A stretch of 64,000 nucleotides of DNA from an uncultured bacterium (lineage in GTDB: Bacteria; Bacillota; Clostridia; Christensenellales; Borkfalkiaceae), in contig CATKAP010000212.1 of the NCBI GenBank assembly GCA_949746255.1, positions 1,689 through 65,688 of the forward strand. The letters run 5' to 3'. Below, piece by piece: positions 2,641 to 60,562 of this stretch. Under the pieces are notes generated by a model, which saw only the letters and a program-made list of their open reading frames with translations, made no database searches and was not told the origin of the DNA. Numbering within the stretch: the stretch's first letter is position 1; each line of letters opens with the position of its first letter. Both the position numbers and the translations under genes were made by a program.

Positions 2641-5121
2641 TTATTTTCTGCGCTTTTTAATAATTATGCCCGTAGCTGCACAACCCGCACCTACAACCAC
2701 TACCGCAACCGGAACTATTACAACAGCCGGATTAAAAGTTCCTTCGTTTTCCGCGCCGGAGTCGTCTTTATCCTCTTCCTTAGGAGGCTCGGGTTTGTCG
2801 GGTTCTTCGGGGTCAACCGGTGTGTCAGAGTCGCTTTTTATTTCAAACGTTTGAGTTGCTTCTCCCGTAAAATTGCCCGTACCTTTTAACTTTATCTTCG
2901 CCGTGCCGACGTTAACATTATCGGAATAACCGGCAATAAAGTCAACGTCTTCTTTAAGACTCTTATCCGCCGCTAGTATACCTTCGTTCTCCACAGTGTA
3001 ATTCGGTATTATCGCCGCGCCGTTATATTCGTAACTGCCAGTAACCTTTATAACGGTACCCGCCGATATATCTCTCGGAGTTACCGTTACTATACGGCTT
3101 CCCTGCAACATTTCGTAATTATCGAAGGTTACTTTATAATATATTTCTTTACTATCCGAAACGTTTGTAACTGAAGGTAGTTCAGCGACAAATGTTCCGT
3201 CCTCGGTAAGACAATACAAAATACTGCCGTCCTTCATACCGTCTTCGCCCATAAAACCGGTTGCGTTTACGGTAATTTGATGAGCCAAACCGTCATAAAT
3301 TACGTTAACGCCTTCCGAAACATCCGTAAGTATAGCTTTTTTTATCTCAAACGTCTGCGATTTTACACTGGAAAAGTTACCCGTGCCGGTAAGAGTAATT
3401 GTAGCGGTACCCGCATTTAAATTATCGGTTATAACCGCAGTATAATCCGTGCCGAGCATAAGAGATTTATTTTCTCCTTTAAGTTCCGCATCCGCCGCCG
3501 TATACTCCGGCGTTATTTCCGAACCGATATAAACGTATTCACCCGAAACGGATATTACCGAACCGCTTAAATCGCGGCTTGTTATCGTTACCGTTTTACT
3601 TCCCGTTACGGTGTTGTAGTTTGCAAAAGTTATCTGATAATATATCGTTAACGGACTGCCCGCGTCCGTTAACACGGGGCTTTCGTCAAGCGTGAAAGCC
3701 CCGCTTGAAATTCCGTATCTTACTACCGCCGACGAATTTTCAAACGTATCGTCGCCGATAAAACCCGTAACCGATACGGTTATTCCGTGAGGCGCGCGGT
3801 CGTACACAACGTTTACGTCGGCGGTAGCATCCGTTACCGCCGCCTTGACGATATTAAAAGTTTTTATGCAGGTACCCGTAAAATTGCCTTTTCCCGTCAA
3901 AGTGATCGTTGCCGTACCCGCGTTTATATTATCGGAAAATTCCGCCGTAAAATCGGTGCCGTTTACAAGCGTTTTGTCAGCGATTGTTAAAGCCGAATTG
4001 CTTACGGTAAATTCGGGAACGATTTCGGTACCCGTGTACGTCCGGTCGGCAATAGTAGAAAACTCCGTATTCGCCGCCAAACTCCTCGGCGTAACCGTAA
4101 TTTTTGCACTGCCCGTAAAATCTTTATACGTATCCTTAAAAGTAACTTTATAATAGATTGTCGTGCTCTCCGAAACGTTTGTTACCGTAGGACACGCAGT
4201 AAGATTACAATTATCCGCCGAAACGCCGAATCGGATTGTAGCTTTAGTGCTTAAATAATCGTCGGGATAAAAACCTGTAGCCGAAACAGTTATGTAATGT
4301 TTTTGTCCGTCATAAATAACTCTGACGTCTCGAGTAGTATCCGTTAAAGTTTTCGGCGGGTTTTTGTCGTTAACAGTGCCGCCGTCATGCGAAAATGTTC
4401 CGTTTTCTGATACCTTCACACCGCCGTACAGCGCCCCTCCGTTCATTAAAAATGTTCCTTTATCGCCCACGTAAACGCCGTTTGACGTTTCGTATCCGCA
4501 CAAATTATCGCTAATCGTGCCGCCGTTCATAATAAACGTTGCGTTGGTGTTTACAAGATACACCGCCCCTCCGTAATATTTACAAACATTATCGGCGATT
4601 TTTCCCGATTCAAGAGTAAACTTTCCTCCGTCCACTACTATAGCTCCGCCGTAGTTGCCGTTATATCCGCCGCAAATTACTCCCGTTTTTGACGATGAAC
4701 TGTCCTTTATGGTAAGAGTTCCTTTAACGGTTATTACGCAGCCCCAGTCAATATACGTTGAAAGATTACGGTCTAATTTATATCCGTTTAAATCCAATAT
4801 AATATTTTTATAACTTGGTACTAATAATGAGCGGCTATGCCCTTCTTCAAAACCTGTTCCCGTACCGAATCCGCTTTGTGCGGCTACCCAGTTTTTTGTC
4901 AGTTTAAACATCTGAGGTCTAGCGCTTGTACTTGCCTCAACTTTGGAATTCCATTCGTTCATAAGCGCCGTATCGTAACTATCCGCGGCGGAAGCAACCG
5001 TTTCGGTTTTTGCGTTGATAAAATAATTTACACAACAGGCCGCCGAACAAGCAACGATAAAAATAATACTTAAAATAATGAATTTCGTAGTTTTAAACGT
5101 GTTTTTAAATATCGTTTTCAT
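2641..5121 (-). CDS. Surface repeat protein B (826 aa), a miniature paralog of the giant proteins
   Basis: ATG 5121 has AAGGAGG 8 nt upstream. The protein has an N-terminal signal/anchor (FIILSIIFIVACSAACC) and the adaptor MFKLTKNW...ILDLNGYKLDRNL. A short GG..Y..G.F.M.GG beta-helix-like region follows, then three ~168-aa two-domain units and a Pro/Glu/Asp-rich linker. The C-terminal TM helix is VVIVPVAVVVVGAGCAATGIII followed by KKRRK. Confidence 0.92.
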   Translation of the reverse strand: MKTIFKNTFKTTKFIILSIIFIVACSAACCVNYFINAKTETVASAADSYDTALMNEWNSKVEASTSARPQMFKLTKNWVAAQSGFGTGTGFEEGHSRSLLVPSYKNIILDLNGYKLDRNLSTYIDWGCVITVKGTLTIKDSSSSKTGVICGGYNGNYGGAIVVDGGKFTLESGKIADNVCKYYGGAVYLVNTNATFIMNGGTISDNLCGYETSNGVYVGDKGTFLMNGGALYGGVKVSENGTFSHDGGTVNDKNPPKTLTDTTRDVRVIYDGQKHYITVSATGFYPDDYLSTKATIRFGVSADNCNLTACPTVTNVSESTTIYYKVTFKDTYKDFTGSAKITVTPRSLAANTEFSTIADRTYTGTEIVPEFTVSNSALTIADKTLVNGTDFTAEFSDNINAGTATITLTGKGNFTGTCIKTFNIVKAAVTDATADVNVVYDRAPHGITVSVTGFIGDDTFENSSAVVRYGISSGAFTLDESPVLTDAGSPLTIYYQITFANYNTVTGSKTVTITSRDLSGSVISVSGEYVYIGSEITPEYTAADAELKGENKSLMLGTDYTAVITDNLNAGTATITLTGTGNFSSVKSQTFEIKKAILTDVSEGVNVIYDGLAHQITVNATGFMGEDGMKDGSILYCLTEDGTFVAELPSVTNVSDSKEIYYKVTFDNYEMLQGSRIVTVTPRDISAGTVIKVTGSYEYNGAAIIPNYTVENEGILAADKSLKEDVDFIAGYSDNVNVGTAKIKLKGTGNFTGEATQTFEIKSDSDTPVDPEEPDKPEPPKEEDKDDSGAENEGTFNPAVVIVPVAVVVVGAGCAATGIIIKKRRK
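2845..4352 (-). repeat. Three tandem ~503-nt coding units (two Ig/MBG-like domains each) in protein B
   Basis: Each unit starts with the recurring motif (T/A)LTD...Y D(G/R)..H.ITV..TGF. Each unit ends with NAGTATITLTG.GNF(T/S)...TF.I.K. The same unit type is seen five times in protein A. Confidence 0.8.
4360..4740 (-). other. Beta-helix-like Gly-rich repeat region of protein B (approximate limits)
   Basis: I read the repeats GGYNGNYGGAIVVDGGKFTLESGKIADN, YYGGAVYLVNTNATFIMNGGTISDN and GVYVGDKGTFLMNGGALYGG. Confidence 0.55.
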
Positions 5122-5224: not shown

Positions 5225-8200
5225 TTATTCTTTGTCAAGCTCCTCGGAATAATCTTCGGTAAATCCGTCTTCGTCAATATACCCGCCGCCGGCAACGCTT
5301 GACCCGCGCCGTTTTACGGCTATAAGTATTATTATGAGAAGCAACATCAAAGCAAATCCGCCGGCTATTGCCGCAATCGCCCAGACGGGCATTCTAAACC
5401 CTTCGGGTTCCGGTTCCGGAGGCATGGTTATAACAACCGTAACCGCGTCCGTATTTTCGTCGAGTTTATAATTTGCGTTGTCTATCGAAATCTTTATACC
5501 GAAAGTTCCCGCATTTACTGCGTCCGTACCGCTGAAAATTTTCACGGTTACGTTGATTATATCGCCGTTTGCAAGCTCTATCTGAGTCGTTTGACCTAAT
5601 TTAAGCTCGTCAAGTTTTACCGTTGAGCCGACCCCGTCCACAGGAATGAAACCTTTAAGCGTTACAGAAGGAATATGTTCTTCGCCGTCGTACTCAAAAG
5701 ATTTTTCACCCCATTCCGCGGTAATTTTTCTTGCGTTTACCTCATATTTATCAAGGTTTGTATCGGAGTTGGGTTCGTTTGTCGCGCTGTATTTGAATTC
5801 GAGATTCGCATACATAGGATTCTGCAACGCAGCCTCGGTGAAACTAAGCCTTATAACGTATTTTCTCACATCGGAATTTACATCTACAAATCCGTCCGTT
5901 TCACTCACGTCTTCATAAGCAAACGCGCGTGCGAGAAGTTTAAGCTGTTCGTAATCAGCCGCGTCGTTTTTAAACGCTCCGCCTATTTCGAGATATCCGC
6001 CGTCAAGAAGTTCGGGAAGAAGGTTTTTACCTTTTACCGTTTCTCCGTAAGTTACCGTATAAGGTTTGAGGAACGTTACTGTTACATACTTGTCTTTCGG
6101 TTCGATACGAACTTTCCAGATACCGTACTTGGTTTCATGACTTTCCGCCTCTATCCGATAATAAACTACCCAGCTTCCGGCTTGCTTTATTTCGGGAGCG
6201 TTAGACTGCTCGCCAACCGCAAACATCTGCATTATCTGAGCGATTGTCATACCGTCGTGCAGGGTCGCGTCATACTTATCGATATTAACGCTGTAAGTTA
6301 CCGTTGCGGTTTTTCCGCCCTTTAAGGTCAGATATTTGTATTCTCCGCTTTCGTCCTTTTCGCCGAGAGTTATAAAGTAGTTTTGGAATCTGTCTATTAC
6401 GCCGTCCTCGTCGAACCATGTGGAAGAATTTTTGGAAACGCTTATATTGGCTTTACTTACGGTATATGTCGCGGCTTTGCCGTTAAGCTCGTCGTCGCTT
6501 CCCCAACTTCCTCTGAATGTAACGTCGTAATTTGCGTTGCCGCACGAAGGAATAATCGGGTATTTGCCGGCCTCCGCCGTCTGCACATCGTTTACTTCGC
6601 ATGTAAACGTAATATCAAGGTCGTCGCCGGCCATAACACTGCCCTGCGTTACCGTCCAATTGAGTCTGTTTACGTCGATAGTCAAAGCGCCGTAAACGCT
6701 TTCCGCGTCATCGTCTATATGCACGGTCAAACTTCTCGGTTTAATTACATATTCAATCGAAGTGCTTTCACCGCTTTCGTCGAATACGTAACCGCTTAAA
6801 TCTGTTCCGTCCACAGCCTGCATATCGGTTTCCGCCGTATATGTTCCGGCATTTTTATTTGCGCCGCTAACTGTAAGGAATATCTGTTCTCCGTTAAGCC
6901 AAACGTAAGCTACGGGCGCTTGTTCTTCACCGTTATAAACCAAATCTTTGTTGGTCCAATTAAGTTTTACCGAAAGTGTTCCCGTAACAGTGAACGAATA
7001 TACGGAAATCAACTCGCCGTAGTTTGCCGTTCCCGCAAGCGAAACCTGAGCATAATACGTACCCTGAGGAGCTTCCGTTTTTACATATTCTTCGGTTATT
7101 TCCTTTGTACAAGCCGAATCGCTGAAATACTTTATAACAACCGCGCTCGCATTGCCGAACTTGGGCTCGGGGCGGGTTATATACATATTACCGCTTCCTG
7201 CCACAACGGTGCCGCGAACCTCGAATTCCGTAGTCCATTCGTTTTCCGCTTGCAAAATGTTAAATTCCAGAGTTATCGCAGCAAGGGTTGTATCGCTCCA
7301 TCTCGTATTCACATAATCGGCGAGCTGAATAACAACTCTGTATACACCCGCGTCTATACCGCCGTCGTTAAACACAACGATATATTTGCCTGCGGGAATA
7401 TCCGCCGTCAAACGCTGACCGTTATAAATTTTATCCGTAAGTTCAGGCGCGAATACCGTTGCTTTTTCAACCGTGTAAACGCCGTTTGTGAACGTTACGT
7501 CGTAATTGCTCGAATCGGTGCATATACCCGTTATTGCGTATTTTCCAACAGTGGAATTTACAGTTACCGAACTCGTAAGGAAGATTGGTTCTCCCCCGAC
7601 AAAAGTTTGACTTCCGTCGGCGTACCTCCAACCGTTAAAAGTTACCGTATCGCCGTATTCCGCCGTTACGTTGTTTATGATTACCGAAACTTTGCGTTTT
7701 TGGATAGTAAACTCGTGTTCGGATTCGCCCGTCAGCGTTACGTTTCCGCCCGCCAACGTTGCCACAGCCGTATATGTTCCCGCGCGCACGGCCGCACCGC
7801 CGTTCACGGAAACATTGAGTTCCACCCTTTCACCGTTTGCGGTGAAGTAATAAGCTCCGGGCTTCTGCTCTTCTCCGTTGTAAACGAACGGAGCGCTTTC
7901 CCAAACTATTACGTATGCGGAAGGAATTATATCGAATCCTACTGTTGCGCCGTCTTTGGGAAGTTTATAATTTGAATTACTTACAGCCGTAACTTCCGCT
8001 CTGTAATTTATGCCGGCCGCCGTCTGCGCACCGCTAACCGTAAGCACCACTCTGTCGCCGGATATTACGTTTCCCGCTTCCGCATAAGGAAGATGCGATA
8101 ATCCGTCCTGAGTATATTTGAGCGTATCGGAACTCATGGTTTCATCGTTAAACCAATGTACCGTTATCGTTCGTTTTTCTACGGTCAACACGCCCGGAAC

Positions 8201-11200
8201 AAATATTATTTCGTAATTTTCGGAAGTAAGTCCCTTAGGCGTAAGCCTGTAACTGCCGGCGTTTCCGCCCGCAACATATCCGAATTCGAACGCAAGCGCG
8301 CCGCCGAATATACCCGCGGTCGTCTGGGATTCTCCGTTCACAAAACCGTTATAGGACACTCCGTTGGCTACCGGTTCGTCGCCGTATACTACCGTACTGT
8401 CGTTTGCCGTAACCGTAAGGCGCGCTTTTTTAACGGTAAGCGTGGTATACATTGCGGGGATATCTTCATGGTTGCCGTCGCCGACAAACGTTACGGTAAC
8501 GCCGTACACGCCCACGTTTACCGCGCCTGCGCGCTCTATACCGTCAAGCACATAGACAACCTCGGCAGTAACTCCGTTAGGCAATCCTTTAACGGTTATC
8601 AGGTGTTCGGCGCCGTCGTAAACGACTTCCGTACCGGTGAATACCACTCCGGACATATCGTAAGGAGTTTTATTTACGGTAAGAGTACCGCAACTGCCCG
8701 TATCCGAACCGCCGCTTGCCCAACTGCCGCCTGTGAATATTACATCGTAATTCAAATTACCCTTGAACGTGCACGCAATAGGATATTTGCCTGCCGCAGT
8801 TATTTCTCCGCAAGCGAATGTTAAATCGTAGTCGTCGCCTTCAAGGAATTTGTGTTCCGCCGACTGTGAAGCATAAGTCCAGCTCACCGCGCTCATATCC
8901 GGAGTTTCACCGAATTTTATACTTATATCGCCGATGGTTATATAAACCGAACGGGGAGTTACGGAGAAAGAAAATTCTTCGTCGGCATTTACAAACGGCT
9001 CATCGGAATTTATTATCTTAGCCACGTAATCGCCTGCGTTAACTGCCTGCGTCGCCCTTCCGTCTTTGTCGTATACCCCGATATTTTCGGGCTTAACCGA
9101 AATAAATTTGCCGACCGCTCCGTCATAATAGCTTGCCGTGGGTTTTTTAGCCGTACCGTCGTAATACATAGTTGAGTAGTTCCAAACTATTTCGTATTCA
9201 ACGGGATTTTCGTATGCAACGGTAAACACCGTTCTTATACCTTCGGCGGGAAGTTTGTAATTGGCAGCAGCTGTTACTCCGTCCGCAAGATAGATACCCG
9301 TAACTACCGCAACATACCCGTCTCCGACCTTTTCTCTTTCAACTTCGGCTTTGAGAACCAGCGTATCTCCGTTAACGGTATTGCCTGCAACGGCATAAGG
9401 GATATATACTTTACCTTCCTCATAGGTATACGCAAGGTTTGTATCGGTATCCGTTTCACTCTTCTGCCATGTAGCGGTAATTTCGCGAGGAGTAACCGTG
9501 AGCGTTCCGAATACGTACTCGATAACATAGTTATCCGCGTAATTGTTGCCGCTAAGCTCTATAACGTTCTCGTGTTCGCCGGCGCCTTCATAAGCCGCGA
9601 AAGAAAATACAATGTTGCCCAGCACGTCGTCTGCGGAATCGTTAAATGCAAGACCTTCAACGGTATAACCGTATCCGCCTGCAACCGCATTTTGTCCGTA
9701 AACCACGCTGCCGTCGTTTGCCGTAACGGTAAGTTGCGCCTTGTTGACGGTGAGCTCAGCCCAAACGGGTTCGCCCGAACCGTAATGGTTGTCGTCGAAT
9801 TCAAATTCGACTTTTACCTTATAAACGCCGGCGTCTATAGCTCCGTCGATAAGTTCGGTTACACCGTCGGCTTTATAATAAGTATAAATTGCGTTTGCAA
9901 CGCCTTCAGCCGTACCCGTAACATATATATTTTTGACGTTTCCGTCGTAATCGAGAGCTATGTCGTCGAATCTTATTCCCGACAAATCGGACTGTTTTTT
10001 ATTTATCGTAAATGTTTTTTCTACGTTTTCCGGAATTTCGTAATTGTCGGAATCCGCCGTAAACGTAATTATTACTTTATATTCGCCCGCGTCAATTACT
10101 CCGTTTATACCCATTACGACGCCGTTTTTAATATAAGTGCAAACAGCCTTTAAATAAGAAGGTAAACCTGTAATTTCGAGAGCATGCGACAATCCGTCGT
10201 ACGTAACCGTAAGTTTTCCGTATTCCACTCCGCTTAAATCGGGAGAAGCTTTTTTAACGTTTATCCAACCTTCGGTAAATTCCACCTCATAGTTGGAATT
10301 GCCGCACTTACCTGTAATCGCGTATCTGCCCGCGGCTACGCCAACAGTCGTGGCGACGGAAGAAAGAACTACGGGGTTACCGTCTCCAGCCGCAAAATGC
10401 GCGCTGCCCGCGGCATAGGACCAACCGTTCTGCGAAAGAGTAAATTGCTCTCCGTAAATTATATCCGCAACGGAATCGATTATCACGGAAACTTTAAGCT
10501 TGAGTATTGTAAATCCGTGCGTGGAATCTCCGCTTATCAAATCTTTGTTGGGGTCGTCGTCGCGAGGCATAGCTCTTGCGATGTATTCGCCGACGTCTTT
10601 GGATTCTTTTGTAACCGTAACAACAAGTTCGCGCCTTACGCCTTCTTCGTCAAAGTAATAGGCTTTAGGCATCTGAACCTCGCCGTTGTAATATATGGGA
10701 GTATTATCCCAAACGATGTTATACGGCTTTGTCATTACGTCGAAACTGCACTGTCCGCTACCGTCTACGGGTAAAGCATAATTGGGATTACTTAAGCCCG
10801 TGACCTTTGCAACGTAACCGAGTCCGGCAAAACGTTGCCCGCCCGATACCGTAAGCAATACGGAGTCGCCTTCGATAAGCCCTCCGGCTACGGCGTGGGG
10901 AACGAAACTCGTAGTTCCGTCGTAATAATATACAAAGTTCTGCGAACTTTCCGTTTCGTCGTCGTACCAGGTTACCGTAACGGGTTTGGGGACAACTTTT
11001 AAAGTGCCTACTCTGTAATTTATTTCATAATTTTCCGCCGACAGTCCGTAAGGCGTAAACGAATAATTTCCTACGCTGGAACCTTTAACGTAACCGAACG
11101 TGAAGCCGAGCTCGCCGTTCAAAACGTCAGCGGCGCTTTCGCCGGCAACCAACCCGGTACAGGTAATACCGAAGTTTTTCGGTTCTTCGCCGTAAGTTAT

Positions 11201-38958: not shown

Positions 38959-38989
38959 AAAAATCCACCCGCGAACGGGTGGATTTTTT
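38959..38989. terminator. Bidirectional intrinsic terminator after giant gene C
   Basis: The stem is ATCCACCCG (38963-38971), loop CGAA, then CGGGTGGAT (38976-38984). It is flanked by an A-run and a T-run, and lies 18 nt downstream of the stop at 39007. Confidence 0.88.
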
Positions 38990-48708: not shown

Positions 48709-48743
48709 GCGCCTTATTATAAAATGTTTTTGTAATAAGGCGC
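48709..48743. other. 11-bp stem-loop in the D-C intergenic spacer, no U-tract on either strand
   Basis: GCGCCTTATTA (48709-48719) and TAATAAGGCGC (48733-48743) are separated by a 13-nt loop. The element lies 72 nt downstream of the gene D stop and 73 nt upstream of the gene C ATG. Confidence 0.6.
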
Positions 48744-54800: not shown

Positions 54801-57800
54801 CCCATAGGCGCAATGCGGAACTGTCTGTCGGAACCGGAAAGCGAATAGTTTTGGTCGGTTATAAACACCCTTACCACGTAGTTCGCCGCATTGACGGGTT
54901 TTTCGTCCAACCATTCGCCGAACATGCCGTCGCCGAGAACTTCCGCATATTTCACGGTAAAAGGTATTTCCGCGGAATTTGCGCCCAACAACGTAACTAC
55001 GGGCGCCTGCGCGCTGCCGCTGAACGTCCAAACAAACTGGTTGTTATTGTTTGCGTTGCCGGCAAATGCCGGAGTAACCGTCATTTTGACGATATCCATC
55101 TGACAAGAATAGTTATCGCCCAAAACATAGTTAACGCAATTTTCGGGAAGAGAAACTCTCGCCGTATAAATACCTACGTTAACGGGTTCGGAAGAAAGTT
55201 TTTTACCGTTGAGGTAATATTCTATAACGGGTTCTACGTTATCGCCCGAACGCAAGCCGTACAACCTTGCGCTTACCGAACGGTTGCTTCCGTTAAAGAT
55301 ATAAGAAACTTCGTTTACGGGCGCGTCGGTTTCGTCACGCCAGCCCGCGGTAATTATTAAAGGATTGATATAATAGGTTTGTTCTTCGTTGACGAATACG
55401 ATTCCGTCGTCGCCGTGGAACGGGCTGTCATCGGAAAATCTTACGTGCACTGTATATCTGCCCGCGTTTACAGGCACGCCCGAAAGTATCTGATCCGTGC
55501 CCGCAATTGTATAATAGGCTTCCAAACCAATATTACCGACAAGTTCGTTATCGTCTATGCCGTTAACGACGAATACCGGAGAGTGGCTTACCGCGTCGTA
55601 ATTCCAATAATACGCGCCGTCTTTAATTCCCGAAGAGCCGTCAAAATCCCATACGAACGAAAGCGTTCTTCTTAAAATTTCAAATTCCAGAACGCCGTTT
55701 TCATAATTTGCCGCAACGCTGTCGGCAATTTCCAAAACGCTCTTGCCTACGTTCTTTAAAGTTAAATCGTTTTTAAGCGCGACAGCCGTACCGGATACGG
55801 GGTTCATAGCGCGGAATTTGTATTCTTTACCTGTGTAATAAATAACCGTATCTTTAACGTCTTGCCACGTTGCGCCGTTATCCGTTGAATACTGCCATTC
55901 TAAGGTAACTTTTATAATTTCGAATATAAGCGTGGGGTTAGCGTAAATAACCGTTGCTCCCGCGGTGTTTTCCACGGTATAACCGTAACTTCCGATAGCC
56001 GAGAACTCAGAAGGCAAACTTACAGCGTCGCTGAGGCTGGAAGACGTGGGCGCGCTTATAACCACGGTGTTGTTATAACGTCCGCGCACCGTGTAGTCTG
56101 CGCCGATAAATGGCACGCTGAAATACGTTGTGTTAATATCGTGCCAGGTTGCGCCGCCGTCAGTGGAATATTCCCATATAAGAGTTCTGCGCTCCACGCT
56201 ATCAGCCGTACTCAACACGGCTTCTCCCGCAGAATTCTGAGTTATTCTGTATGCGGTATTGTCAGAGAAGAAGTAAGTTAAAGGACTTATACTGGGATTA
56301 TGCGTTTTATAACCCGTCGTAAAAGCTTTATTCAACATTGAAACATTGGTTATACCTATATATGTGGTATTACCGTCGCCGCGCAATTTTCCGATAATAT
56401 TAATAGGGGATCCTTCTGAAACATAGGTATTATTTGAATCTCCGTTCAAGGTGACGTTGCGCGCAATTATACCGCCCGCCAAATTCATACGTCCCGCGCC
56501 GGCAATACGGACACCGCCACCGGTAATCGCGCCGGATTTGTTTTCTATTACTCTTCCGCCGTACATAGTAAACGTACCGTCAACGTTTACGCCGGCGCCG
56601 CCGTGCACCTTTGCTATATTTTTGGAAATAGTACCGCCGTTCATCGTAAATTCACCGACAACGCCAACGCCGCCGCTCCATCTTTCCGCAACGTTTTCGG
56701 TAATAAGTCCGCCGTTCATGGTGCAGCTGGCAGTATTATCTATTACAATTGCACTGCCTGAATCATCGGTATAATTTCCTGTAATCAACCCGTCGTTGAA
56801 AACAAGCGATCCACTGTTGCTTATATATACGCCGCCGCCGAAAACTCTTTTGTTTGCCGCCTCGTCGTATCCTTCAATATGATTGTTGCTAATAGTGCCG
56901 TCCCATATTGTTCCGGTTGAACCGGATAAATGCAAGCCGCCGCCCGATTCCGCTTTGTTGCCGTCGATTTTGCCGCCTCTCATTTCAAAAGTGCCACCGC
57001 TTGAAACGCAAACGCCGCCGCCCGTTCTTGCGGTATTTTTTGAAATTTCACCGCCGCGCAGAGTAAGGTTTACGTTGTTGTAAACAAATATACCGCCGCC
57101 GTAATTTACCGTAGTGTTGCCGGAAATTTTACCGTCGTTTAAAATAACGGTACAATCCGAACGGTACATTTGGGTTACTTCGGCATATAAAGCGTAAAGC
57201 GCGCCGCCCGTGTTGCCCGACGTATTGTTAAGAAATTCGCCGTAATTTATTTCAAGCAAACCGTTGTTTATATAACCCGCGCCGCCGCTTGCTTCCGCGC
57301 TGTTATTGTTGAATTTACCTCCGTTTATAACGACTTCGGAGTGGTATATATAGAAAGCGCCGCCGTTTGTTCCCGCACTGTTTCCGGTAATTTCAATATC
57401 GCTGATTTCTACGTTGGACAAAGTACCGACATATATGCCGCCGCCGCGCGCACCCGCTTCGTTATCGCGGATTACGCCGCCGTCTATAACGGCGGAACCG
57501 TCTTTATCGGCGCCCATTAAATTGAAGAAATAAATTCCTCCGCCGTTTGTAGAAGCATAATTACGCGTAACTATGCCGTTGTCAATATAAAAACTTGCAC
57601 CGTCGTTAGCGCTAGGCGCAGACAAACTTCCGCCCTGTACGCAAATACCGCCGCCGTTGTCGGAGGAGTTTTCCTTTACCGTACCGCCGTACATATTCAT
57701 TTCCGCCTGGAAAACGGAAACTCCGCCGCCTACGCCCGAAGAAGTATTGCCGCTGAATTCGCCGCCGTACATATTAAATACGGAATTGGTGTTTATGTAA

Positions 57801-60562
57801 AATCCGCCGCCGTTATAAGCGGCGCCTCCGGAAACTTTACCCGAATACATTTTTACGTCCGATTGTAAAAAGTAACCGGCGCCGCCCCAACTTGACTCTC
57901 CGCTCAAACGGTTATTCAAAAACTGTCCGCCGTTTATAACGATTTCGGAATTATACGACGCGTTTATACCGCCGCCGCGCCTTACGGATTTATTATCCGA
58001 AATATAACCGCTGTTAAATGTAAATTTTGAAGTCAGCGCCGACGAGCTGGGCGTAGCCGAAACCGTAGGCGATTTTACAATGGTATCAAACGATTGCTGT
58101 CCGGTAACGAATATACCGCCGCCGCCCGAATAGCTTACGCTGCCGGTAGTTTCTTCCACGCTGTCAACGGAAATATTTCCCGTAATTCTACCGCCGGAAA
58201 GAACGAGTTCGCCTCCTCTTTCCACGCGAACGCCGCCGCCCGCGCCCTTATTGTAACCGCCCGTAATACTGCCCGATTCACCTGTGGTTCTGTCGACTAT
58301 TTCAAGTTTACCGCCGTCTATTACGATAACGTTACCCTTGGATTGAGGCACGGACAAATTACGGTCTATTTTTCTGCCGTTTAATCTTATTATTATATTT
58401 GCCTTTTCGGGCACTAAAAGTCTGCCGCTGTCAAAACCGACGCCCTCGCCGAAGGAGGTTCCGAAGGTTTCGTGCGGGCGCGCATACCAATTTTCGGGAA
58501 GAAGGAATTCAACGGGAGTAACGCCGTTGTTATCCAAACTTTCCTGAACCGCCGAATTCCAGAGTTCGGCTAAATCGAGCACGGGTTCTTCCCCCTCCGC
58601 TCTCGTCAAATTGAAGTGAATCGCCGGACGAACAGCCGCCGCCGTGCTGGTTCCAACGCCGTTTACCAAACTTCCCGCCGAATTAATTCTGTAGTTTCTT
58701 GCCGGATTTGCGCTGTAACCCGAACGCGTAGCGGAATAAAGGTTGTAAGTATTCCCGCGCATTGCGGCAGTCGCATTCCAAATTCCTCCGGCGCCTTCGT
58801 GCCCGCCCGTTTCCGAAACAGAAGGGAGCCAGATTAAGTCGTCCGACCAATCGGTATAACCAGGTTTGCCGGTATAATTCATATTTATTTCGCCGTTTAC
58901 ATACCAACCGCCTTGAGAAGGCACGCCGTAGGCTTCGTTGGGAGCAAGGAAAGAAAATGCGTTTGTTTCAACCGTGCTTTCGTTCGCCTGCCATGAAATT
59001 TGCGAAGGCGCGACAAAATAATTACCGAAATTCGAGGTAAACTTCTGCCACATATAAGAAGGCGCGCCGCTTGAAAGTTCGCTTGCGCCTTCGGTAGCCG
59101 CGTACTGCGTACCAGTAAGCTGATTTCTTGCGTAACTCGAAGAATACATGTTTGCGGGATAAGCGTAAGAACTCTTTTCAGAAGTCCATTTATTAAACTG
59201 AACGCCGTTCTGATTGTATGCGTTGGTAACGTCCGAAAGCCAAAGCGTGGCAATCACGTTGCCCGTTTTATCTTTGGATAAATAAGTTACGTACCAGGTA
59301 AGTCCGCCGAGAGTAACTTTTACGTCGTTACCGCCGTTGTTGGCGCGTATATCGGCGGAAGATAAAACTCCGTTTGCGGCTTTGCCCAAAGTTTCTTTAA
59401 GCGATTCGTAAGAATTGCCCGCCGTGCCTGCGTTAACCGCCGCATATAATGCGTTTAACGTGGTTTCGTTAACTTGTTTGGTGTTTCCGTCCACAAGCTC
59501 GCCGACGGCGTTTGCACTGTTGTATACACTTTTTAAATTGAGGTGGAACGCCGGACGAACGCTTCTTGACGAAGCAACGGTATCGACACCTACACCGACA
59601 CCGACTTCACCCGTAGAACTATTCACAAAATATACGCCCGTAGTTGTAGCCGTTCTCGTAGTTCTGGTCCAACAATCCGACGATCCCTGACGCATCGCCG
59701 TAGTTGTAGCCCATATACCGGACTTGCCGCCTATACTGCCCAACTCTGAAGCGGAGGGCACCCACAGTTGATCATATTTCCAATCTGCATAACCTTCTTT
59801 AGGGTTTGCCGTAAGATAATCCGAAGTTAATTGCGACTCGCCTACCCCCGTTGAGGGTACGCCGTAACATTCGTTGGGAGCGAATGCAGTCCAGCCGCCG
59901 TTATAAACCGCACCCGATTCCGTTTCCTGATACGCGACGTCCGCGGGGGTAACTATATATGCGCCGTAATTATCGCGCAGAGTTTGCCAAACGTTTGCGG
60001 CAGATCCCTGACTGAGATATCCGTTGCCCGCTTCCTTGACGTACGGCGTACCCATAAGCTGACTTCTTACAAAGCTTGAAGAATACATATTGGAAGGATA
60101 CGCAAAATCCGTGCCCTGTTGCGCCCATTTACTCCATTGCACGGAATTTTGTCCGTCGTCGGTTATGGTATCCGCAAGCCAGAGCGTTGCAATAACATTG
60201 TCGTTTCTGTCGCGGGAAACATACGCGATGTTCCAGGTAAGTCCGCCAAGCGAAATATTTGTTTGATTGGCGCCCGAAGCGAAATACGTTGAGTTACGAA
60301 CGTTTGTGCCGAGCGCGGTGCTCATCTGGTCGTATGTAGTAACGGTATTATTACCCGCTATTCTTCGCATAAGCGTTTGTACGTCGGTTGCGTTTGCGCG
60401 CGTAATACCCGCGGAACCGAAGTTGAGACGGGTGCCGCCGACAGAAGTTGCGTTTGCAGGAAAAGTTAAACTTGCCAACGCAATAATAAAACAGCATAAA
60501 AAACTCGCCAACAATGTAAATATTGCGGAAAGCCGAATTTTATTCGTCGAGTTTTTAATCAT
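48815..60562 (-). CDS. Giant cell-surface repeat protein D (3915 aa), putative adhesin with two head modules
   Basis: The ORF track starts at TTG 60598, inside a terminator U-tract. ATG 60562 has GAGGTG 6 nt upstream. After the signal (LSAIFTLLASFLCCFIIALASLTFPANA) come two head modules ending RPAFHLNL and RPAIHFNL. The adaptor is IIIRLNGRKIDRNL. About 650 aa of beta-helix-like repeats follow, then about 2500 aa of Ig/MBG-like modules. The C-terminal TM helix is WLLWVLIAAGALLLILIIIILVLA, followed by an acidic tail. Confidence 0.95.
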   Translation of the reverse strand: MIKNSTNKIRLSAIFTLLASFLCCFIIALASLTFPANATSVGGTRLNFGSAGITRANATDVQTLMRRIAGNNTVTTYDQMSTALGTNVRNSTYFASGANQTNISLGGLTWNIAYVSRDRNDNVIATLWLADTITDDGQNSVQWSKWAQQGTDFAYPSNMYSSSFVRSQLMGTPYVKEAGNGYLSQGSAANVWQTLRDNYGAYIVTPADVAYQETESGAVYNGGWTAFAPNECYGVPSTGVGESQLTSDYLTANPKEGYADWKYDQLWVPSASELGSIGGKSGIWATTTAMRQGSSDCWTRTTRTATTTGVYFVNSSTGEVGVGVGVDTVASSRSVRPAFHLNLKSVYNSANAVGELVDGNTKQVNETTLNALYAAVNAGTAGNSYESLKETLGKAANGVLSSADIRANNGGNDVKVTLGGLTWYVTYLSKDKTGNVIATLWLSDVTNAYNQNGVQFNKWTSEKSSYAYPANMYSSSYARNQLTGTQYAATEGASELSSGAPSYMWQKFTSNFGNYFVAPSQISWQANESTVETNAFSFLAPNEAYGVPSQGGWYVNGEINMNYTGKPGYTDWSDDLIWLPSVSETGGHEGAGGIWNATAAMRGNTYNLYSATRSGYSANPARNYRINSAGSLVNGVGTSTAAAVRPAIHFNLTRAEGEEPVLDLAELWNSAVQESLDNNGVTPVEFLLPENWYARPHETFGTSFGEGVGFDSGRLLVPEKANIIIRLNGRKIDRNLSVPQSKGNVIVIDGGKLEIVDRTTGESGSITGGYNKGAGGGVRVERGGELVLSGGRITGNISVDSVEETTGSVSYSGGGGIFVTGQQSFDTIVKSPTVSATPSSSALTSKFTFNSGYISDNKSVRRGGGINASYNSEIVINGGQFLNNRLSGESSWGGAGYFLQSDVKMYSGKVSGGAAYNGGGFYINTNSVFNMYGGEFSGNTSSGVGGGVSVFQAEMNMYGGTVKENSSDNGGGICVQGGSLSAPSANDGASFYIDNGIVTRNYASTNGGGIYFFNLMGADKDGSAVIDGGVIRDNEAGARGGGIYVGTLSNVEISDIEITGNSAGTNGGAFYIYHSEVVINGGKFNNNSAEASGGAGYINNGLLEINYGEFLNNTSGNTGGALYALYAEVTQMYRSDCTVILNDGKISGNTTVNYGGGIFVYNNVNLTLRGGEISKNTARTGGGVCVSSGGTFEMRGGKIDGNKAESGGGLHLSGSTGTIWDGTISNNHIEGYDEAANKRVFGGGVYISNSGSLVFNDGLITGNYTDDSGSAIVIDNTASCTMNGGLITENVAERWSGGVGVVGEFTMNGGTISKNIAKVHGGAGVNVDGTFTMYGGRVIENKSGAITGGGVRIAGAGRMNLAGGIIARNVTLNGDSNNTYVSEGSPINIIGKLRGDGNTTYIGITNVSMLNKAFTTGYKTHNPSISPLTYFFSDNTAYRITQNSAGEAVLSTADSVERRTLIWEYSTDGGATWHDINTTYFSVPFIGADYTVRGRYNNTVVISAPTSSSLSDAVSLPSEFSAIGSYGYTVENTAGATVIYANPTLIFEIIKVTLEWQYSTDNGATWQDVKDTVIYYTGKEYKFRAMNPVSGTAVALKNDLTLKNVGKSVLEIADSVAANYENGVLEFEILRRTLSFVWDFDGSSGIKDGAYYWNYDAVSHSPVFVVNGIDDNELVGNIGLEAYYTIAGTDQILSGVPVNAGRYTVHVRFSDDSPFHGDDGIVFVNEEQTYYINPLIITAGWRDETDAPVNEVSYIFNGSNRSVSARLYGLRSGDNVEPVIEYYLNGKKLSSEPVNVGIYTARVSLPENCVNYVLGDNYSCQMDIVKMTVTPAFAGNANNNNQFVWTFSGSAQAPVVTLLGANSAEIPFTVKYAEVLGDGMFGEWLDEKPVNAANYVVRVFITDQNYSLSGSDRQFRIAPMGVTVSWSGRTENVEGVNGTRGESGAIEWTYDGLGHYLTATARPVSQIIIDGSTVSLDLDVTGEIINEAGTENATASLKTEHSVNFYFVDESQCKQAYGINKFVITSVKWERTVDGNVIVNNSSDRPHYVYGTVTGANGPGFSAKATGINNTVITLDEVYYSAQFGDGENWAANSVNGYTAYADIPADIARNYKFADNISSENNHSQTFIIFFIDSITGDKTTITPTWIVYNDDSHTSYKTLAEFGGDKFTFTYDGTSHKIYAVYIESGAIVEELDVVYDGEGVDAGAYNARLLPSDKYDYSGKRDCAFEVLKRKIVITWTQGKFYYDKTEKKPVASVSYYVDGGEGEAVPAATVGLTVQGAVNAGPHTAMASVNANYEIVSGATFDFEIGRVSFGADDIDWEENATFVYDGNQHAPKATFKSPYDGDLTLKVIGSSSVGTHWAIAALDDSNLLHNNYYIRNPEDATCEFKIVRVTVTDVKWSYEENGDDITDNNPAVYTYNGKVQGPVAYFIDNEGVRHNLEVNGRMTNAGSYVVYVTADYDFGSKVPSMSFVINPRQLSVVWNNTLVDYTGSAQSPKVTFNDLLTGDPVTDDFAGQYTLSSYTNAGVYNAQLHLTNGNYTFVNGSGVSNTLIHEFTISKLVVSEAGGLGWSSTVSWVYDGAEHAPELGFKDGYTYLLGTDEVEFTFGYNGVTSYAGSHTVTAYILSAMWNGRDIAENFIIADAISSRGYTITSRPVTVDWDWTGAEKDGDVHFWYYNGTAQGPAAYMLDDDGNRITDGTNPISLTVFGKGINVLDQGYTVTVNAPENYVFVIDGDEATVATAHYYIRKANITVVWAADGVENEDYTIENGVFVWTYDGNEHAPKAYIYDADKPDNLGAQLMVTGGAVNAQTSAYTAYAAQNNGNYTIVSGASQQFIIRELPVYILWYGNNGSLTDFEWEYDANNTDGFKPDAYLAVKDENGDLVRLRVDGEYVKLTVTGAMSQVCQGDETYTATAVDLVPNYTFAADAQVEQEFKIVPMVLTSFTWNANGATAELVDGIWVYTFVYDGTLLQPLPQTSYPFEFVTTVKRVNSDGTLGDVVLASIDAGTYQLETAPQDGNYAVPAGSAVVRVVITPREAQVQWSGSEFVYNGLPQAPEAYYTDVNGEKIVLNVTVTGEHVNAGKSYSAKAEFKETGVTNYTLTSATKTYAITQREIPVSWTWSSEWNNKTVEYDGKEHAPVPVPSLGNAFADDVANGNLTITYSIALKGGATLSGLTAKNAGEYVVKNVLGGAKAGNYKLKNGEETFTISRKALTVTSDALTIPYGSPVPVYTATFSGFVAGEEQEFDLNNPAISANWISCVYTSRTVPGQYPIKLNKQWLENKLSNYSLTLQEVLLTVEAVSRTVIWQGKLENDFGAEYDGVAYKPTAFYYNDGSSTPIPLNVVYASYDETTGEYTRITDPSYAAIEAGTYYALAVDANGTVQLQNAGVMFRIHKRKITVNISSVDGDIFGKVYKRVYETGDEVVVSKYLVWNYADKQPVLRHDLEIELSCEFLFDEYGFAHAGKYMISGSWNSEDFGNNYEVIFAGEGEDADGNNVYGVYEIVKAEISINKRDDIMSEDEFFLGHVSVGNPWYIRLGETSEVDGLRKYTFIGHNGYQGADIVNVYYSDLVYNLTTETVPDPSDEAANAYQSVRRGISKVGRYAINYKIEIPNHETLYGTWRVLILPEDQVARIIFSKDFEIEYGKNVPENFATYLLDEGYITVETIGVDEYRHYATAYVSDGKGNRVNSFTGVGRYTIEVEINMPAGSTTEYHISYHAINQLDDTNVGRYVITPKKLVVEWGVEASYDYQAGVIHMPSPNVFGWVTANTLNIGAEQIKTKGTGTEYEYSAFRIMDNGQEVTILVAASGNFTDEGGHTLRMYVENSNYEISDTNDVTVVTIIDRTEIPPTLTEGLPGWLLWVLIAAGALLLILIIIILVLASRRNKGGLTIFGGYDEGFGDDTDEYSDDLGDGE
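56400..58360 (-). other. Beta-helix / Pmp-like repeat region of protein D (approximate limits)
   Basis: The repeats read GGGVRVERGGELVLSGGRITGN, GGGINASYNSEIVINGGQFLNN, GGGIYVGTLSNVEISDIEITGN, GGGVCVSSGGTFEMRGGKIDGN and so on. Confidence 0.6.
58608..60430 (-). other. Two tandem head modules of protein D (DUF6273-like; approximate limits)
   Basis: The module ends lie at about 59527-59550 and 58608-58632. The landmarks are LGGLTWN(I/V), TLWL(A/S)D, Q(W/F)(S/N)KW, YP(S/A)NMYSSS(F/Y)(V/A)R(S/N)QL and LW(V/L)PS.SE(L/T)G. Confidence 0.6.

What the first reader, a model, noticed from the sequence alone, without database searches (positions are those of the whole stretch)
2641..60562. Four paralogous giant surface-protein genes occupy two thirds of the window
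Genes B (2641-5121), A (5225-24340), C (39007-48636) and D (48815-60562) total 42,975 nt. They share an ordered architecture. It begins with a signal/anchor and 0, 1, 3 or 2 head modules. A conserved adaptor follows: K/F-L-T-(R/K)-(N/D)-W ... FG.G(V/T)GF..G ... VP ... II.(D/R)LNG(Y/R)K/N/R(L/I)DRNL. After that come a Gly/Asn-rich parallel-beta-helix-like region, long arrays of Ig/MBG-like modules (YDG..H, YNG..Q.P and VYG types) and usually a C-terminal TM helix. I see no LPXTG sorting signal, no S-layer-homology or choline-binding repeats, and no autotransporter beta-barrel. At 6371 aa, protein A is among the larger bacterial proteins. This combination of heads, Pmp-like helix, MBG arrays and a type-I membrane anchor is not one I can assign to a described adhesin family.
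Basis: partly seen in the sequence, partly recalled or inferred. Interest (0 to 1): 0.85.

Follow-up and report, generated by a model that had tools for sequence, protein, structure and literature searches.

The report
Giant modular surface adhesin-like gene family
Four related giant genes from an uncultured mouse-gut Clostridia bacterium encode very long, membrane-anchored surface fibres tipped with lectin-like domains; they look like adhesins built from known parts in an arrangement nobody has characterised.

Summary
Four minus-strand ORFs (B 826 aa, A 6371 aa, C 3209 aa, D 3915 aa; 42,975 nt, 67% of the window) are paralogues with one ordered architecture. It runs: N-terminal signal or anchor; 0, 1, 3 or 2 head modules; a conserved "adaptor"; a Gly/Asn-rich beta-helix; 6 to about 58 MBG-type modules; then, in A, B and D only, a C-terminal TM helix with a stop-transfer signal.

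The tools refine each part. The heads are divergent DUF6273 C-type-lectin-like domains. An AF2 model (pLDDT 91.8) matches the N-terminal domain of the Thomasclavelia ramosa IgA peptidase and phage DUF6273 receptor-binding proteins. The "adaptor" is the helix-capped start of the right-handed beta-helix. This unit has no Pfam or NCBIfam model, yet it recurs in 2,409 protein clusters, up to 23 times per protein. The stalk is made of MBG-superfamily modules.

The genes are not assembly chimeras. Three independent assemblies give A at 6370-6372 aa, and the DNA repeats are only 60-87% identical. A D-then-C gene pair, including anchorless C, is colinear at 62-68% identity in another species.

Best reading: fibrillar adhesins of a Christensenellales-like gut bacterium, a new variant of a known kind. 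The ligand is unknown, and interest is moderate rather than 0.85.

The parts
2641..5121 (-). Gene B, 826 aa. Layout: signal/anchor (aa 1-45), beta-helix cap or 'adaptor' (44-172), short beta-helix (173-254), 6 MBG-like modules (255-773), Pro/Glu linker, TM helix (794-822), KKRRK tail.
4606..4992 (-). B cap ('adaptor'): one alpha-helix followed by the first beta-helix rungs.
   Evidence: HMM E = 3e-53. The AF2 model has pLDDT 88-98 over the first 110 residues and 77-93 over the next 20.
5225..24340 (-). Gene A, 6371 aa. Layout: signal, 1 head, cap, about 575-aa beta-helix, about 58 MBG-superfamily modules, TM helix, acidic cytoplasmic tail.
   Evidence: The same protein appears at 6370-6372 aa in 3 assemblies.
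23441..24211 (-). A head module (divergent DUF6273, C-type-lectin-like).
23072..23458 (-). A cap ('adaptor').
   Evidence: HMM E = 2e-54; alignment
21347..23071 (-). A Gly/Asn-rich right-handed beta-helix. Rungs are about 26-30 aa with the pattern GGGVY...F.M.GG.I..N.
5420..21112 (-). A stalk: 48 modules hit by the in-house MBG-like HMM, plus about 10 modules of the YG/MBG_2 type in the gaps between them.
   Evidence: Pfam MBG_2 E = 1.6e-66 over 8 stretches
5309..5392 (-). A C-terminal TM helix, followed by KRR and an acidic Gly/Asp/Glu/Tyr tail.
39007..48636 (-). Gene C, 3209 aa. Layout: signal/anchor, 3 heads, cap, beta-helix, 17-18 MBG-like modules. It has no C-terminal TM and ends EWNFEDNKWQATVPP...
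   Evidence: The ortholog in L006 is colinear at 61.6% identity and has the same anchorless end.
45715..48504 (-). C heads 1-3 (DUF6273, C-type-lectin-like). Head 2 was modelled.
   Evidence: AF2 pLDDT 91.8. Foldseek hit 9qa6, E = 4e-5. Phage DUF6273 and receptor-binding proteins, E = 1.7e-5 to 1e-3 (13 hits).
45280..45714 (-). C cap ('adaptor').
   Evidence: HMM E = 7e-48
43957..45279 (-). C beta-helix: 12 rung motifs spaced 19-35 aa apart, most at 25-29.
39058..43764 (-). C MBG-like stalk (17 modules).
   Evidence: Pfam MBG_3 E = 1e-10
48815..60562 (-). Gene D, 3915 aa. Layout: signal, 2 heads, cap, beta-helix, about 19-22 MBG-like modules, a membrane-proximal region, TM helix, acidic tail.
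   Evidence: The partial ortholog in L006 is 67.5% identical.
58580..60445 (-). D heads 1-2.
58193..58600 (-). D cap ('adaptor').
   Evidence: HMM E = 2e-48
56249..58195 (-). D beta-helix. This is the only region with a Pfam Chlam_PMP match, and it is sub-threshold.
   Evidence: E = 0.027, 15.2 bits against a 20.6-bit cut-off
48905..49000 (-). D C-terminal TM helix, followed by SRRNK and an acidic tail.
   Evidence: Scanned alone, the tail reaches NCBIfam GG_III-CTERM at 23.2 bits against a cut-off of 22.
60601..60856 (-). Putative promoter and about 230-nt leader of the D-C unit. Two terminator-like hairpins lie immediately before the ribosome-binding site.
   Evidence: no Rfam family matches
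38959..38988 (.). Bidirectional terminator hairpin (13 pairs) that ends the D-C unit.
   Evidence: No terminator-like site lies between D and C.

Best explanation
The four genes encode a paralogous set of giant cell-surface fibres. They are fibrillar, adhesin-like proteins of an uncultured mouse-gut Clostridia bacterium. Its closest relatives in genome collections are labelled uncultured Christensenella, Eubacteriales or Clostridia.

**Proposed mechanism**
1. Each protein is exported through Sec by its N-terminal hydrophobic signal.
2. In A, B and D, a C-terminal hydrophobic helix followed by Lys/Arg acts as a stop-transfer anchor. This leaves a short, mostly acidic tail in the cytoplasm.
3. 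A stalk of tandem MBG-type beta-sandwich modules spans the wall and projects the N-terminal part. The stalk has 6 modules in B, about 18-22 in C and D, and about 58 in A. If extended, that is roughly 20 to over 200 nm.
4. The projected N-terminal part is a helix-capped, Pmp-like right-handed beta-helix. It carries 0-3 tandem DUF6273 C-type-lectin-like heads at the tip, and these heads (possibly with the beta-helix) bind the ligand.
5. The ligand is probably a glycan or a surface structure. Candidates are host mucus, dietary fibre particles or partner microbes.
6. C has no membrane anchor and is probably co-transcribed after D. It is either retained by an uncleaved N-terminal signal-anchor, released, or held on the surface through another protein.

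**Shown:** paralogy, domain identities and order, predicted folds, topology signals, and conservation across species.

**Inferred:** surface location, orientation, adhesion, and ligand class.
For: **Paralogy and order:**

**Heads**
- The AF2 model has pLDDT 91.8 and pTM 0.91.
- The only significant PDB match is the T. ramosa IgA peptidase 9qa6, over 282 columns with E = 4e-5.
- That enzyme's 290-aa N-terminal domain is a C-type-lectin-like domain (PMC12237041) and is annotated DUF6273 (PMC12402451).
- 13 BFVD matches at E <= 1e-3 are mainly phage DUF6273 proteins; one is labelled receptor-binding protein.
- 12 of the 18 aligned head sequences (six window heads, 12 homologs) hit Pfam DUF6273.
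- DUF6273 is a ligand-binding C-lectin domain in phage receptor-binding proteins (PMC10743442).

**Cap and beta-helix**
- The model is confident: one alpha-helix followed by short beta-strands.
- All top Foldseek hits are right-handed beta-helix proteins, including the adhesins tapirin, PfbA and Ag43, though only at E >= 0.03.
- Some relatives carry precomputed Chlam_PMP or Beta_helix Pfam hits.

**Stalk**
- Pfam MBG_2 and MBG_3 hits.
- 90 modules are tiled by an iterated HMM.
- MBG is treated as a stalk domain of fibrillar adhesins (PMC9210967).

**Topology:**

**Conservation**
- The orthologous D-then-C pair in L006 is colinear, with only 64 gap columns in 3230.
- The stalk is 65-72% identical. 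The heads are 53-67% and the beta-helix 48%, so the proposed distal, ligand-facing part evolves fastest.

**Not an artefact:**
Against: - There is no experimental evidence for surface exposure or binding.
- The function of the DUF6273 domain in the IgA peptidase is unknown, and it is dispensable for IgA cleavage there (PMC12237041).
- Whether the N-terminal hydrophobic segments are cleaved cannot be decided here. The small-x-small sites lie 8-12 residues after the hydrophobic core. Some relatives, such as P0001, clearly have N-terminal signal-anchors with about 37-aa cytoplasmic N-termini.
- The largest relatives (7-8 thousand aa) have only an N-terminal hydrophobic segment. If that segment stays in the membrane, the heads would be membrane-proximal rather than distal.
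- C lacks any C-terminal anchor.
- The Foldseek matches for the beta-helix are not statistically significant.
- The YDG..H type of stalk module was modelled poorly (pLDDT 30-45).
Confidence: 0.7

Rival explanations
1. The proteins are anchored by the N-terminus (an uncleaved signal-anchor), as in most methanogen adhesin-like proteins. The heads and beta-helix would then sit next to the membrane, and the MBG array would be the outward-reaching, interacting part. In A, B and D the array would loop back to a second anchor.
For: - C has only the N-terminal hydrophobic segment, and this is conserved in its ortholog.
- Of the 149 best relatives, 110 have an N-terminal hydrophobic segment but only 33 have a C-terminal one. 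All of the 7-8 thousand aa members lack the C-terminal one.
- P0001-like relatives have long cytoplasmic N-termini before the TM segment.
- Methanogen adhesin-like proteins show the order TM, capped beta-helix, Ig repeats, and some have anchors at both ends (PMC11532034).
Against: - The four window proteins have short, basic n-regions typical of cleavable signals, with Ala-x-Ala-like sites after the hydrophobic core.
- The C-terminal TM helix plus Lys/Arg plus a conserved acidic tail in A, D, L004 and L006 is a classical stop-transfer anchor.
- The faster evolution of heads and helix suits an exposed tip.
Confidence: 0.2
2. They are structural envelope or matrix proteins (an S-layer-like coat, or a biofilm or floc scaffold) rather than ligand-specific adhesins.
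For: - They take up a very large share of coding capacity, with four paralogues of graded length.
- Pmp-like beta-helices and the Ag43-type helix self-associate; Ag43 (4kh3) is among the fold hits.
- Christensenella species flocculate in culture (bioRxiv 10.1101/872333).
Against: - No SLH or other wall-binding module is found.
- Lectin-like heads that phages use as receptor-binding domains argue for specific recognition.
- Self-association and adhesion are not mutually exclusive.
Confidence: 0.15
3. The beta-helix regions are polysaccharide-active enzymes (lyase- or hydrolase-like). In this reading the proteins are surface-tethered fibre-degrading enzymes that work with the neighbouring GH10/GH3 cluster.
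For: - Pectate and pectin lyases and phage tailspikes are among the weak fold matches.
- GH10 and two GH3 genes plus a LytTR two-component system lie between the two gene pairs.
Against: - There is no Pfam or NCBIfam hit to any lyase or hydrolase family, even at E <= 1.
- The rungs are regular GGGVY/F.M.GG.I..N repeats, without the loops and insertions that form the active sites of catalytic beta-helices (the contrast with catalytic beta-helices is from general knowledge and was not tested).
- The fold matches have E >= 0.03.
Confidence: 0.05
4. The giant ORFs are assembly chimeras or collapsed repeats.
For: Short-read MAGs of the same organism break inside these genes. B lies on a 9.7-kb contig, and most homologs are partial.
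Against: - A is recovered at 6371, 6372 and 6370 aa on three contigs (65.7, 71.4 and 112.3 kb) from different sources. D is recovered at 3915 aa twice.
- The internal DNA repeats are only 60-87% identical, and there are no tandem-repeat arrays inside the genes.
- An ortholog in another species is colinear end to end.
Confidence: 0.02

Closest known systems
Fibrillar adhesins (the class defined by Monzon, Lafita and Bateman 2021/2022; PMC8286594, PMC9210967)
   Same: They share a long stalk of tandem repeated beta-sandwich domains, a putative binding domain at the far end and a cell anchor at the other end. MBG is an accepted stalk domain.
   Different: The anchor is a C-terminal TM helix with a cytoplasmic acidic tail, not LPXTG/sortase or a type I secretion retention module. 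The tip combines DUF6273 lectin-like heads with a capped Pmp-like beta-helix. One paralogue (C) has no C-terminal anchor. No member has been characterised.
Adhesin-like proteins of the gut methanogens Methanobrevibacter smithii and Methanosphaera stadtmanae (PMC11532034)
   Same: They share TM-helix anchoring (N-terminal, C-terminal or both), large right-handed beta-helix domains with an N-terminal alpha-helical cap, tandem Ig-like repeats and many paralogues per genome. There is also a transglutaminase-type group, and here a transglutaminase-like surface protein lies next to B.
   Different: The methanogen proteins are archaeal and mostly anchored by the N-terminus, and they lack DUF6273 heads and MBG modules. 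Homology was not tested here, so the resemblance is architectural only.
Chlamydial polymorphic membrane proteins (Pmp; Pfam PF02415)
   Same: They share a Gly-rich parallel beta-helix built from GGA(I/L/V)- and FxxN-like repeats, form a multi-paralogue family and have an adhesin role.
   Different: Pmps are autotransporters with a C-terminal beta-barrel in a diderm outer membrane. The window proteins have none. Only one of them gives a Chlam_PMP match, and it is sub-threshold.
N-terminal domain of Thomasclavelia ramosa IgA peptidase (PDB 9QA6); DUF6273 (PF19789)
   Same: It has the same fold and family as the head modules, over about 290 aa with a C-type-lectin-like core (PMC12237041, PMC12402451).
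   Different: In the peptidase it is a single domain preceding an M64 metallopeptidase on an SPXTG-anchored protein. Here it occurs as 1-3 tandem copies preceding a beta-helix. Sequence identity is about 16%.
Phage DUF6273 receptor-binding proteins ('tentaclins', targets of diversity-generating retroelements; PMC10743442)
   Same: They place the same lectin-like domain at the tip of a chain of Ig-like domains.
   Different: The phage proteins are small and are diversified by a retroelement. The window has no reverse transcriptase and no template/variable repeat pair.

Membership tests
Fibrillar adhesin (class) | Tandemly repeated stalk domains | tested here: met
   Pfam MBG_2 (E = 1.6e-66, 8 stretches) and MBG_3. 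The iterated HMM tiles 6, 48, 17 and 19 modules in B, A, C and D. The remaining gaps are modules of the YG/MBG_2 type.
Fibrillar adhesin (class) | At least one adhesive (ligand-binding) domain | tested here: inconclusive
   The heads are DUF6273 C-type-lectin-like domains. Binding is inferred from the fold and from their use in phage receptor-binding proteins. No ligand is known.
Fibrillar adhesin (class) | Cell-surface anchor | tested here: inconclusive
   A predicted C-terminal TM helix with a basic stop-transfer signal is present in A, B and D and absent in C. Prediction uses hydropathy only.
DUF6273 (PF19789) | Match to the Pfam model, or a shared fold with members | tested here: met
   Full-protein scans gave no hit. 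However, 12 of the 18 aligned head sequences (six window heads plus 12 homologs) match DUF6273, best E = 1.8e-10. Four homologs carry a precomputed PF19789 hit. The model matches the 9qa6 N-terminal domain and phage DUF6273 proteins. C head 2 does not reach the model on its own.
MBG superfamily (PF17883, PF18676, PF18887) | Match to the Pfam models above the gathering score | tested here: met
   A scores 221 bits on MBG_2 and 50.6 bits on MBG_3. C scores 42 bits on MBG_3. D scores 31.4 bits on MBG_2. B shows this only through homology to A's modules (48% identity).
Chlamydial Pmp / autotransporter | Chlam_PMP repeat (PF02415) above threshold | tested here: not met
   Only D matches, at E = 0.027 and 15.2 bits against a 20.6-bit cut-off. 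A and C give nothing at E <= 1. Motif-level resemblance is seen, and some relatives carry PF02415.
Chlamydial Pmp / autotransporter | C-terminal autotransporter beta-barrel | tested here: not met
   No such Pfam or NCBIfam hit is found. The C-termini are a single TM helix, or none in C.
Sortase-anchored (LPXTG) surface proteins | LPXTG-type motif, hydrophobic stretch and basic tail at the C-terminus | tested here: not met
   No motif lies within 900 aa of any C-terminus. The TIGR01167 model is not reached.
S-layer (SLH) or choline-binding wall-attached proteins | SLH or CW_binding repeats | tested here: not met
   No Pfam or NCBIfam hits.
RTX / type I secretion giant adhesins (LapA, SiiE type) | RTX nonapeptide repeats, C-terminal type I secretion signal, N-terminal retention module | tested here: not met
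   No HemolysinCabind or related hits. The proteins have N-terminal Sec-type signals.
Targets of diversity-generating retroelements (C-lectin variable proteins) | Nearby reverse transcriptase and a template/variable repeat pair | tested here: not met
   The ORF and Pfam survey finds no reverse-transcriptase gene. No DNA repeat pair exceeds 87% identity. The rest of the genome was not examined.
NCBIfam GG_III-CTERM (NF041738) | Score above the 22-bit cut-off | tested here: inconclusive
   D's tail scanned alone scores 23.2 bits, but 17 bits within the full protein. The L004 and L006 tails score 18-20 bits, and A and B give no hit. This is a short hydrophobic model with low information.
Methanogen adhesin-like proteins | Sequence or profile homology of the beta-helix and Ig modules | not tested
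   Only the published architecture was compared (PMC11532034). No sequences were on hand.

The most novel reading that the evidence does not exclude
The D-then-C pair, conserved across species with C always lacking an anchor, may form a two-component surface organelle. A membrane-anchored fibre (D) would hold or template an anchorless, three-headed partner (C). The lectin-like heads would mediate specific cell-to-cell attachment, for example the flocculation and methanogen partnering known for Christensenellaceae, or binding of host IgA or mucin glycans. Together with the un-modelled 'cap plus Pmp-like helix' unit (2,409 clusters, up to 23 copies per protein), this would define a new, widespread adhesion system of gut Clostridia. 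Its expression may be gated by the terminator-rich leader upstream of D.
Probability: 0.1. Interest if true: 0.7.

Novelty: new variant of a known kind. Interest (0 to 1): 0.4.

Why it matters
**Share of the genome.** These four genes take up two thirds of a 64-kb stretch of genome from an uncultured gut lineage related to Christensenellaceae. That family is repeatedly linked to host health. No adhesin has been described for this lineage.

**What the proteins could explain.** If they are its surface fibres, they are the obvious candidates for how the bacterium sticks to mucus, fibre particles or partner microbes.

**An annotation gap.** The helix-capped Pmp-like beta-helix unit has no Pfam or NCBIfam model, yet it occurs in about 2,400 protein clusters, many of them 7-8 thousand aa long.

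**Why it has been missed.** The family is almost always fragmented in short-read MAGs, so it has been invisible to annotation.

**Experimental entry point.** The head domain gives a confident structural model, and it could be expressed and screened on glycan arrays.

Tried and rejected
**Database searches that found little**
- Pfam and NCBIfam on the full proteins gave only MBG hits.
- PDB sequence searches with the head and cap profiles gave nothing meaningful.
- A word-indexed homolog search with A's head plus cap found only 2 proteins. Searches with alignments found 13 and 30.
- Literature searches found no paper describing giant surface proteins or adhesins of Christensenellales.

**Technical dead ends**
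It worked with 3 sequences.
- The model of B's first YDG..H module was poor (pLDDT 30-45). MAFFT had misaligned beta-helix rows onto it. The fold of that module type is therefore not established.

**Ideas considered and rejected**
- Diversity-generating retroelement target: rejected, because there is no reverse transcriptase and no template/variable repeat pair.
- Lipoprotein anchoring: only B has a lipobox-like IVAC, so it is not a family feature.
- Periscope-type length variation: not seen. A is 6370-6372 aa and D is 3915 aa across assemblies, and the orthologs are colinear.
- Riboswitch or known RNA in the leaders: no Rfam hit.
- GG_III-CTERM sorting signal: the score is marginal only.


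Full report
**1. Observation**

The window carries four very large minus-strand ORFs at the coordinates given: B 2641-5121 (826 aa), A 5225-24340 (6371 aa), C 39007-48636 (3209 aa) and D 48815-60562 (3915 aa). A's ATG at 24340 is preceded by GGAG. Together the four ORFs cover 42,975 nt, 67% of the window.

All-against-all BLASTP shows they are paralogues:
- A-B: 48% identity over about 500 aa, E = 7e-134.
- C-D: 34-38% over more than 1000 aa, E = 8e-148.
- A-C: E = 2e-68.
- A-D: E = 3e-51.

**2. Anatomy**

*Heads.* Six head modules of about 260-315 aa align with 28 invariant columns. There is one in A, three in C, two in D and none in B.

*Adaptor.* A conserved "adaptor" follows the heads in every protein. 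The same motif occurs in unrelated metagenome proteins, and P0001 has two copies.

*Beta-helix.* Next comes a Gly/Asn-rich region of about 80 aa in B and 440-650 aa in A, C and D. Its rungs are about 26-30 aa and follow the pattern GGGVY...F.M.GG.I..N.

*Stalk.* An HMM seeded on B's modules and iterated tiles 6, 48, 17 and 19 modules of about 85-100 aa in B, A, C and D. The segments left over in A are modules of the "YG" MBG_2 kind, so A's stalk holds about 58 modules. Pfam confirms MBG_2 (E = 1.6e-66, 8 stretches in A's C-terminal half) and MBG_3.

*Termini.* Hydropathy shows an N-terminal hydrophobic segment in all four. A single C-terminal TM helix followed by KRR, RRNK or KKRRK is present in A, B and D only. 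A and D then carry a Gly-rich, acidic and aromatic tail, which recurs in relatives (L004, L006). C ends without a hydrophobic segment. No sortase motif lies near any C-terminus.

*Negatives.* Pfam and NCBIfam give no SLH, choline-binding, autotransporter or RTX hits.

**3. What the parts are**

*Heads.* An AlphaFold2 model of C head 2, built from an 18-sequence alignment, is confident (pLDDT 91.8, pTM 0.91).
- Its only significant PDB match is the cryo-EM structure of the Thomasclavelia ramosa IgA peptidase, 9QA6 (E = 4e-5, 282 columns).
- That enzyme's 290-residue N-terminal domain is described as a C-type-lectin-like domain resembling the Legionella Lcl C-terminal domain (PMC12237041). Another paper annotates it as DUF6273 (PMC12402451).
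- Against predicted viral structures, the model has 13 matches at E = 1.7e-5 to 1e-3, mainly phage DUF6273 proteins, one of them labelled receptor-binding protein.
- 12 of the 18 aligned head sequences hit Pfam DUF6273.
- DUF6273 is the C-lectin ligand-binding domain of phage "tentaclin" receptor-binding proteins (PMC10743442).

The heads are therefore divergent DUF6273 lectin-like domains.

*Adaptor.* In the model of B residues 44-430, the first 130 residues are mostly at pLDDT 88-98. They form one alpha-helix followed by short strands that continue into the beta-helix.
- All the leading Foldseek matches are right-handed parallel beta-helix proteins: P22 and HK620 tailspikes, tapirin, pectate lyases, PfbA and Ag43. 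None is significant (E >= 0.03).
- The "adaptor" is therefore the capped N-terminal start of the beta-helix, not a separate linker.
- Only D gives a Pfam Chlam_PMP match, and it is sub-threshold. Some relatives carry precomputed Chlam_PMP or Beta_helix hits.

**4. Distribution**

*Breadth of the cap unit.* A profile of the cap was searched against 1.84 billion representative proteins.
- It found 2,409 proteins at E <= 1e-3, 988 at E <= 1e-10 and 115 at E <= 1e-30.
- Many are 7-8 thousand aa long, with up to 23 cap copies.
- Multi-cap relatives have no Pfam match at all.

*Architectures among the 149 best hits.*
- 34 also have MBG-like arrays.
- 33 have a C-terminal TM helix.
- 110 have an N-terminal hydrophobic segment.
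- 2 have a sortase motif.
- 5 have the full head, cap, MBG and TM order. Two of these are A and D themselves.

*Taxonomy.* Named sources are all uncultured: "Clostridia bacterium", "Clostridiales bacterium" and "Candidatus Coproplasma sp." MAGs. Loci from GTDB species representatives are titled uncultured Christensenella sp. (mouse catalogue MGBC), uncultured Eubacteriales bacterium (iMGMC) and uncultured Clostridia bacterium.

*Orthologs.* L006 carries a D-like gene with a TM helix and acidic tail, followed by a C-like gene of 3198 aa. That gene has three heads, one cap, 17 MBG-like modules and the same anchorless ending.
- The C-like protein is 61.6% identical to C, and the partial D-like protein is 67.5% identical to D.
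- The C alignment has only 64 gap columns in 3230.
- The stalk is more conserved (65-72%) than the heads (53-67%) or the beta-helix (48%).

**5. Not an artefact**

- Protein A is recovered at 6371, 6372 and 6370 aa on three contigs from different sources, and D at 3915 aa twice.
- The DNA-level repeats are only 60-87% identical.
- Tandem Repeats Finder reports no array inside the giant genes.
- Short-read MAGs do fragment these genes. This explains why nearly all homologs are annotated as partial hypothetical proteins.

**6. Context**

On the minus strand, the gene order is:
1. D.
2. C.
3. A LytTR response regulator.
4. A GHKL histidine kinase.
5. GH3.
6. A Big_2 protein.
7. GH3.
8. GH10.
9. 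An HTH gene (on the plus strand) and a tyrosine integrase.
10. A.
11. B.
12. A transglutaminase-like surface protein that runs off the window.

No terminator-like site separates D from C. A 13-pair bidirectional hairpin follows C, and a perfect 12/12 promoter then precedes the response regulator. D has a leader of about 230 nt with two strong terminator-like hairpins just before its ribosome-binding site. No Rfam family matches anywhere in the window.

**7. Mechanism (inferred)**

- The proteins are exported through Sec.
- In A, B and D a C-terminal stop-transfer helix anchors the protein, following the positive-inside rule.
- An MBG stalk projects the capped beta-helix and the lectin-like heads. 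Assuming 3.5-4.5 nm per module, the stalk would be about 20 nm in B, 60-100 nm in C and D, and over 200 nm in A.
- The heads, and possibly the helix, bind an unknown glycan or surface ligand.

This is the fibrillar-adhesin design (PMC8286594, PMC9210967).

The main uncertainty is orientation. The N-terminal segments might remain as signal-anchors. That seems to be the case in relatives with long cytoplasmic N-termini and in most methanogen adhesin-like proteins (PMC11532034). For anchorless C, an N-terminal anchor, release from the cell or tethering to D all remain possible.

**8. Comparison and novelty**

Each building block belongs to a known domain family or fold: DUF6273 (C-type-lectin-like), a Pmp-like right-handed beta-helix with a helical cap, and MBG stalk modules. 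The overall design is a known kind.

The specific combination and order are not described in Pfam, NCBIfam, the PDB or the searched literature. That includes the TM anchor with an acidic tail and the conserved pairing of anchored and anchorless genes. The closest architectural analogue is the family of methanogen adhesin-like proteins.

I rate this a new variant of a known kind. It has moderate interest (0.4) because the family is abundant, unannotated and sits in a health-associated gut lineage. The evidence is wholly computational and no new principle is shown.

Noticed in passing
window 24450-24486 and 24626-24657: Two copies of a palindromic element of about 32 nt (GTACTCCTAATATTGTATTAGGTGTAC) lie 169 bp apart. 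They bracket the best promoter-like site upstream of gene A (24523-24495). They look like paired operator sites for a dimeric regulator.
   Followed up: partly
window 60601-60856 (minus strand): The leader of gene D, about 230 nt long, contains two strong terminator-like hairpins (60656-60635 and 60625-60601) immediately before the ribosome-binding site. This may be an attenuation or antitermination control for a transcript of more than 21 kb. No Rfam family matches.
   Followed up: partly
window 1-2430 (minus strand): A transglutaminase-like protein with an N-terminal hydrophobic (signal-like) segment lies directly downstream of B. At least 810 aa are in the window, and it is 955 aa in the matching MAG contig L001. 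The transglutaminase label rests on a motif read by eye (CGGYAKAF...HMWNYV); no domain search was run. Methanogen adhesin-like proteins also include a transglutaminase-type group (PMC11532034).
   Followed up: partly
window 24785-26467: A tyrosine integrase (24785-25720, minus strand) and a small HTH gene (26015-26467, plus strand) sit between the glycoside-hydrolase cluster and gene A. The region has low GC (0.374). The same arrangement is present in two other assemblies. No element boundaries were sought.
   Followed up: no
window 26550-38859 (minus strand): A fibre-degradation cluster lies between the two adhesin gene pairs. It contains GH10 with a Big_2 domain and a (PDP)n linker, two GH3 enzymes that are unusually TM-anchored with circularly permuted domain order (C-terminal domain before N-terminal domain), a Big_2 protein, and a LytTR/GHKL two-component system behind a perfect consensus promoter (38940-38912).
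   Followed up: partly
L007 4814-15520 and proteins P0016-P0022: Some relatives consist of 10-23 tandem 'cap plus short beta-helix' units of about 360 aa each. They are up to 7,994 aa long, with only an N-terminal hydrophobic segment. This beads-on-a-string arrangement of beta-helices has no Pfam model.
   Followed up: partly
window 48815-49000 (D tail); 5225-5392 (A tail); L004 and L006 C-termini: The cytoplasmic tails after the C-terminal TM helix share a Gly-run followed by an acidic and aromatic pattern (GG[YF]D[ED]..[DE][YF]..D) across species. This suggests a conserved cytoplasmic interaction. D's TM region marginally reaches NCBIfam GG_III-CTERM.
   Followed up: partly
window 48709-48743: A 16-bp AT-rich hairpin lies in the D-C intergenic region. 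No run of T after it was reported by the terminator scan. It could be an mRNA-processing or stability element.
   Followed up: no
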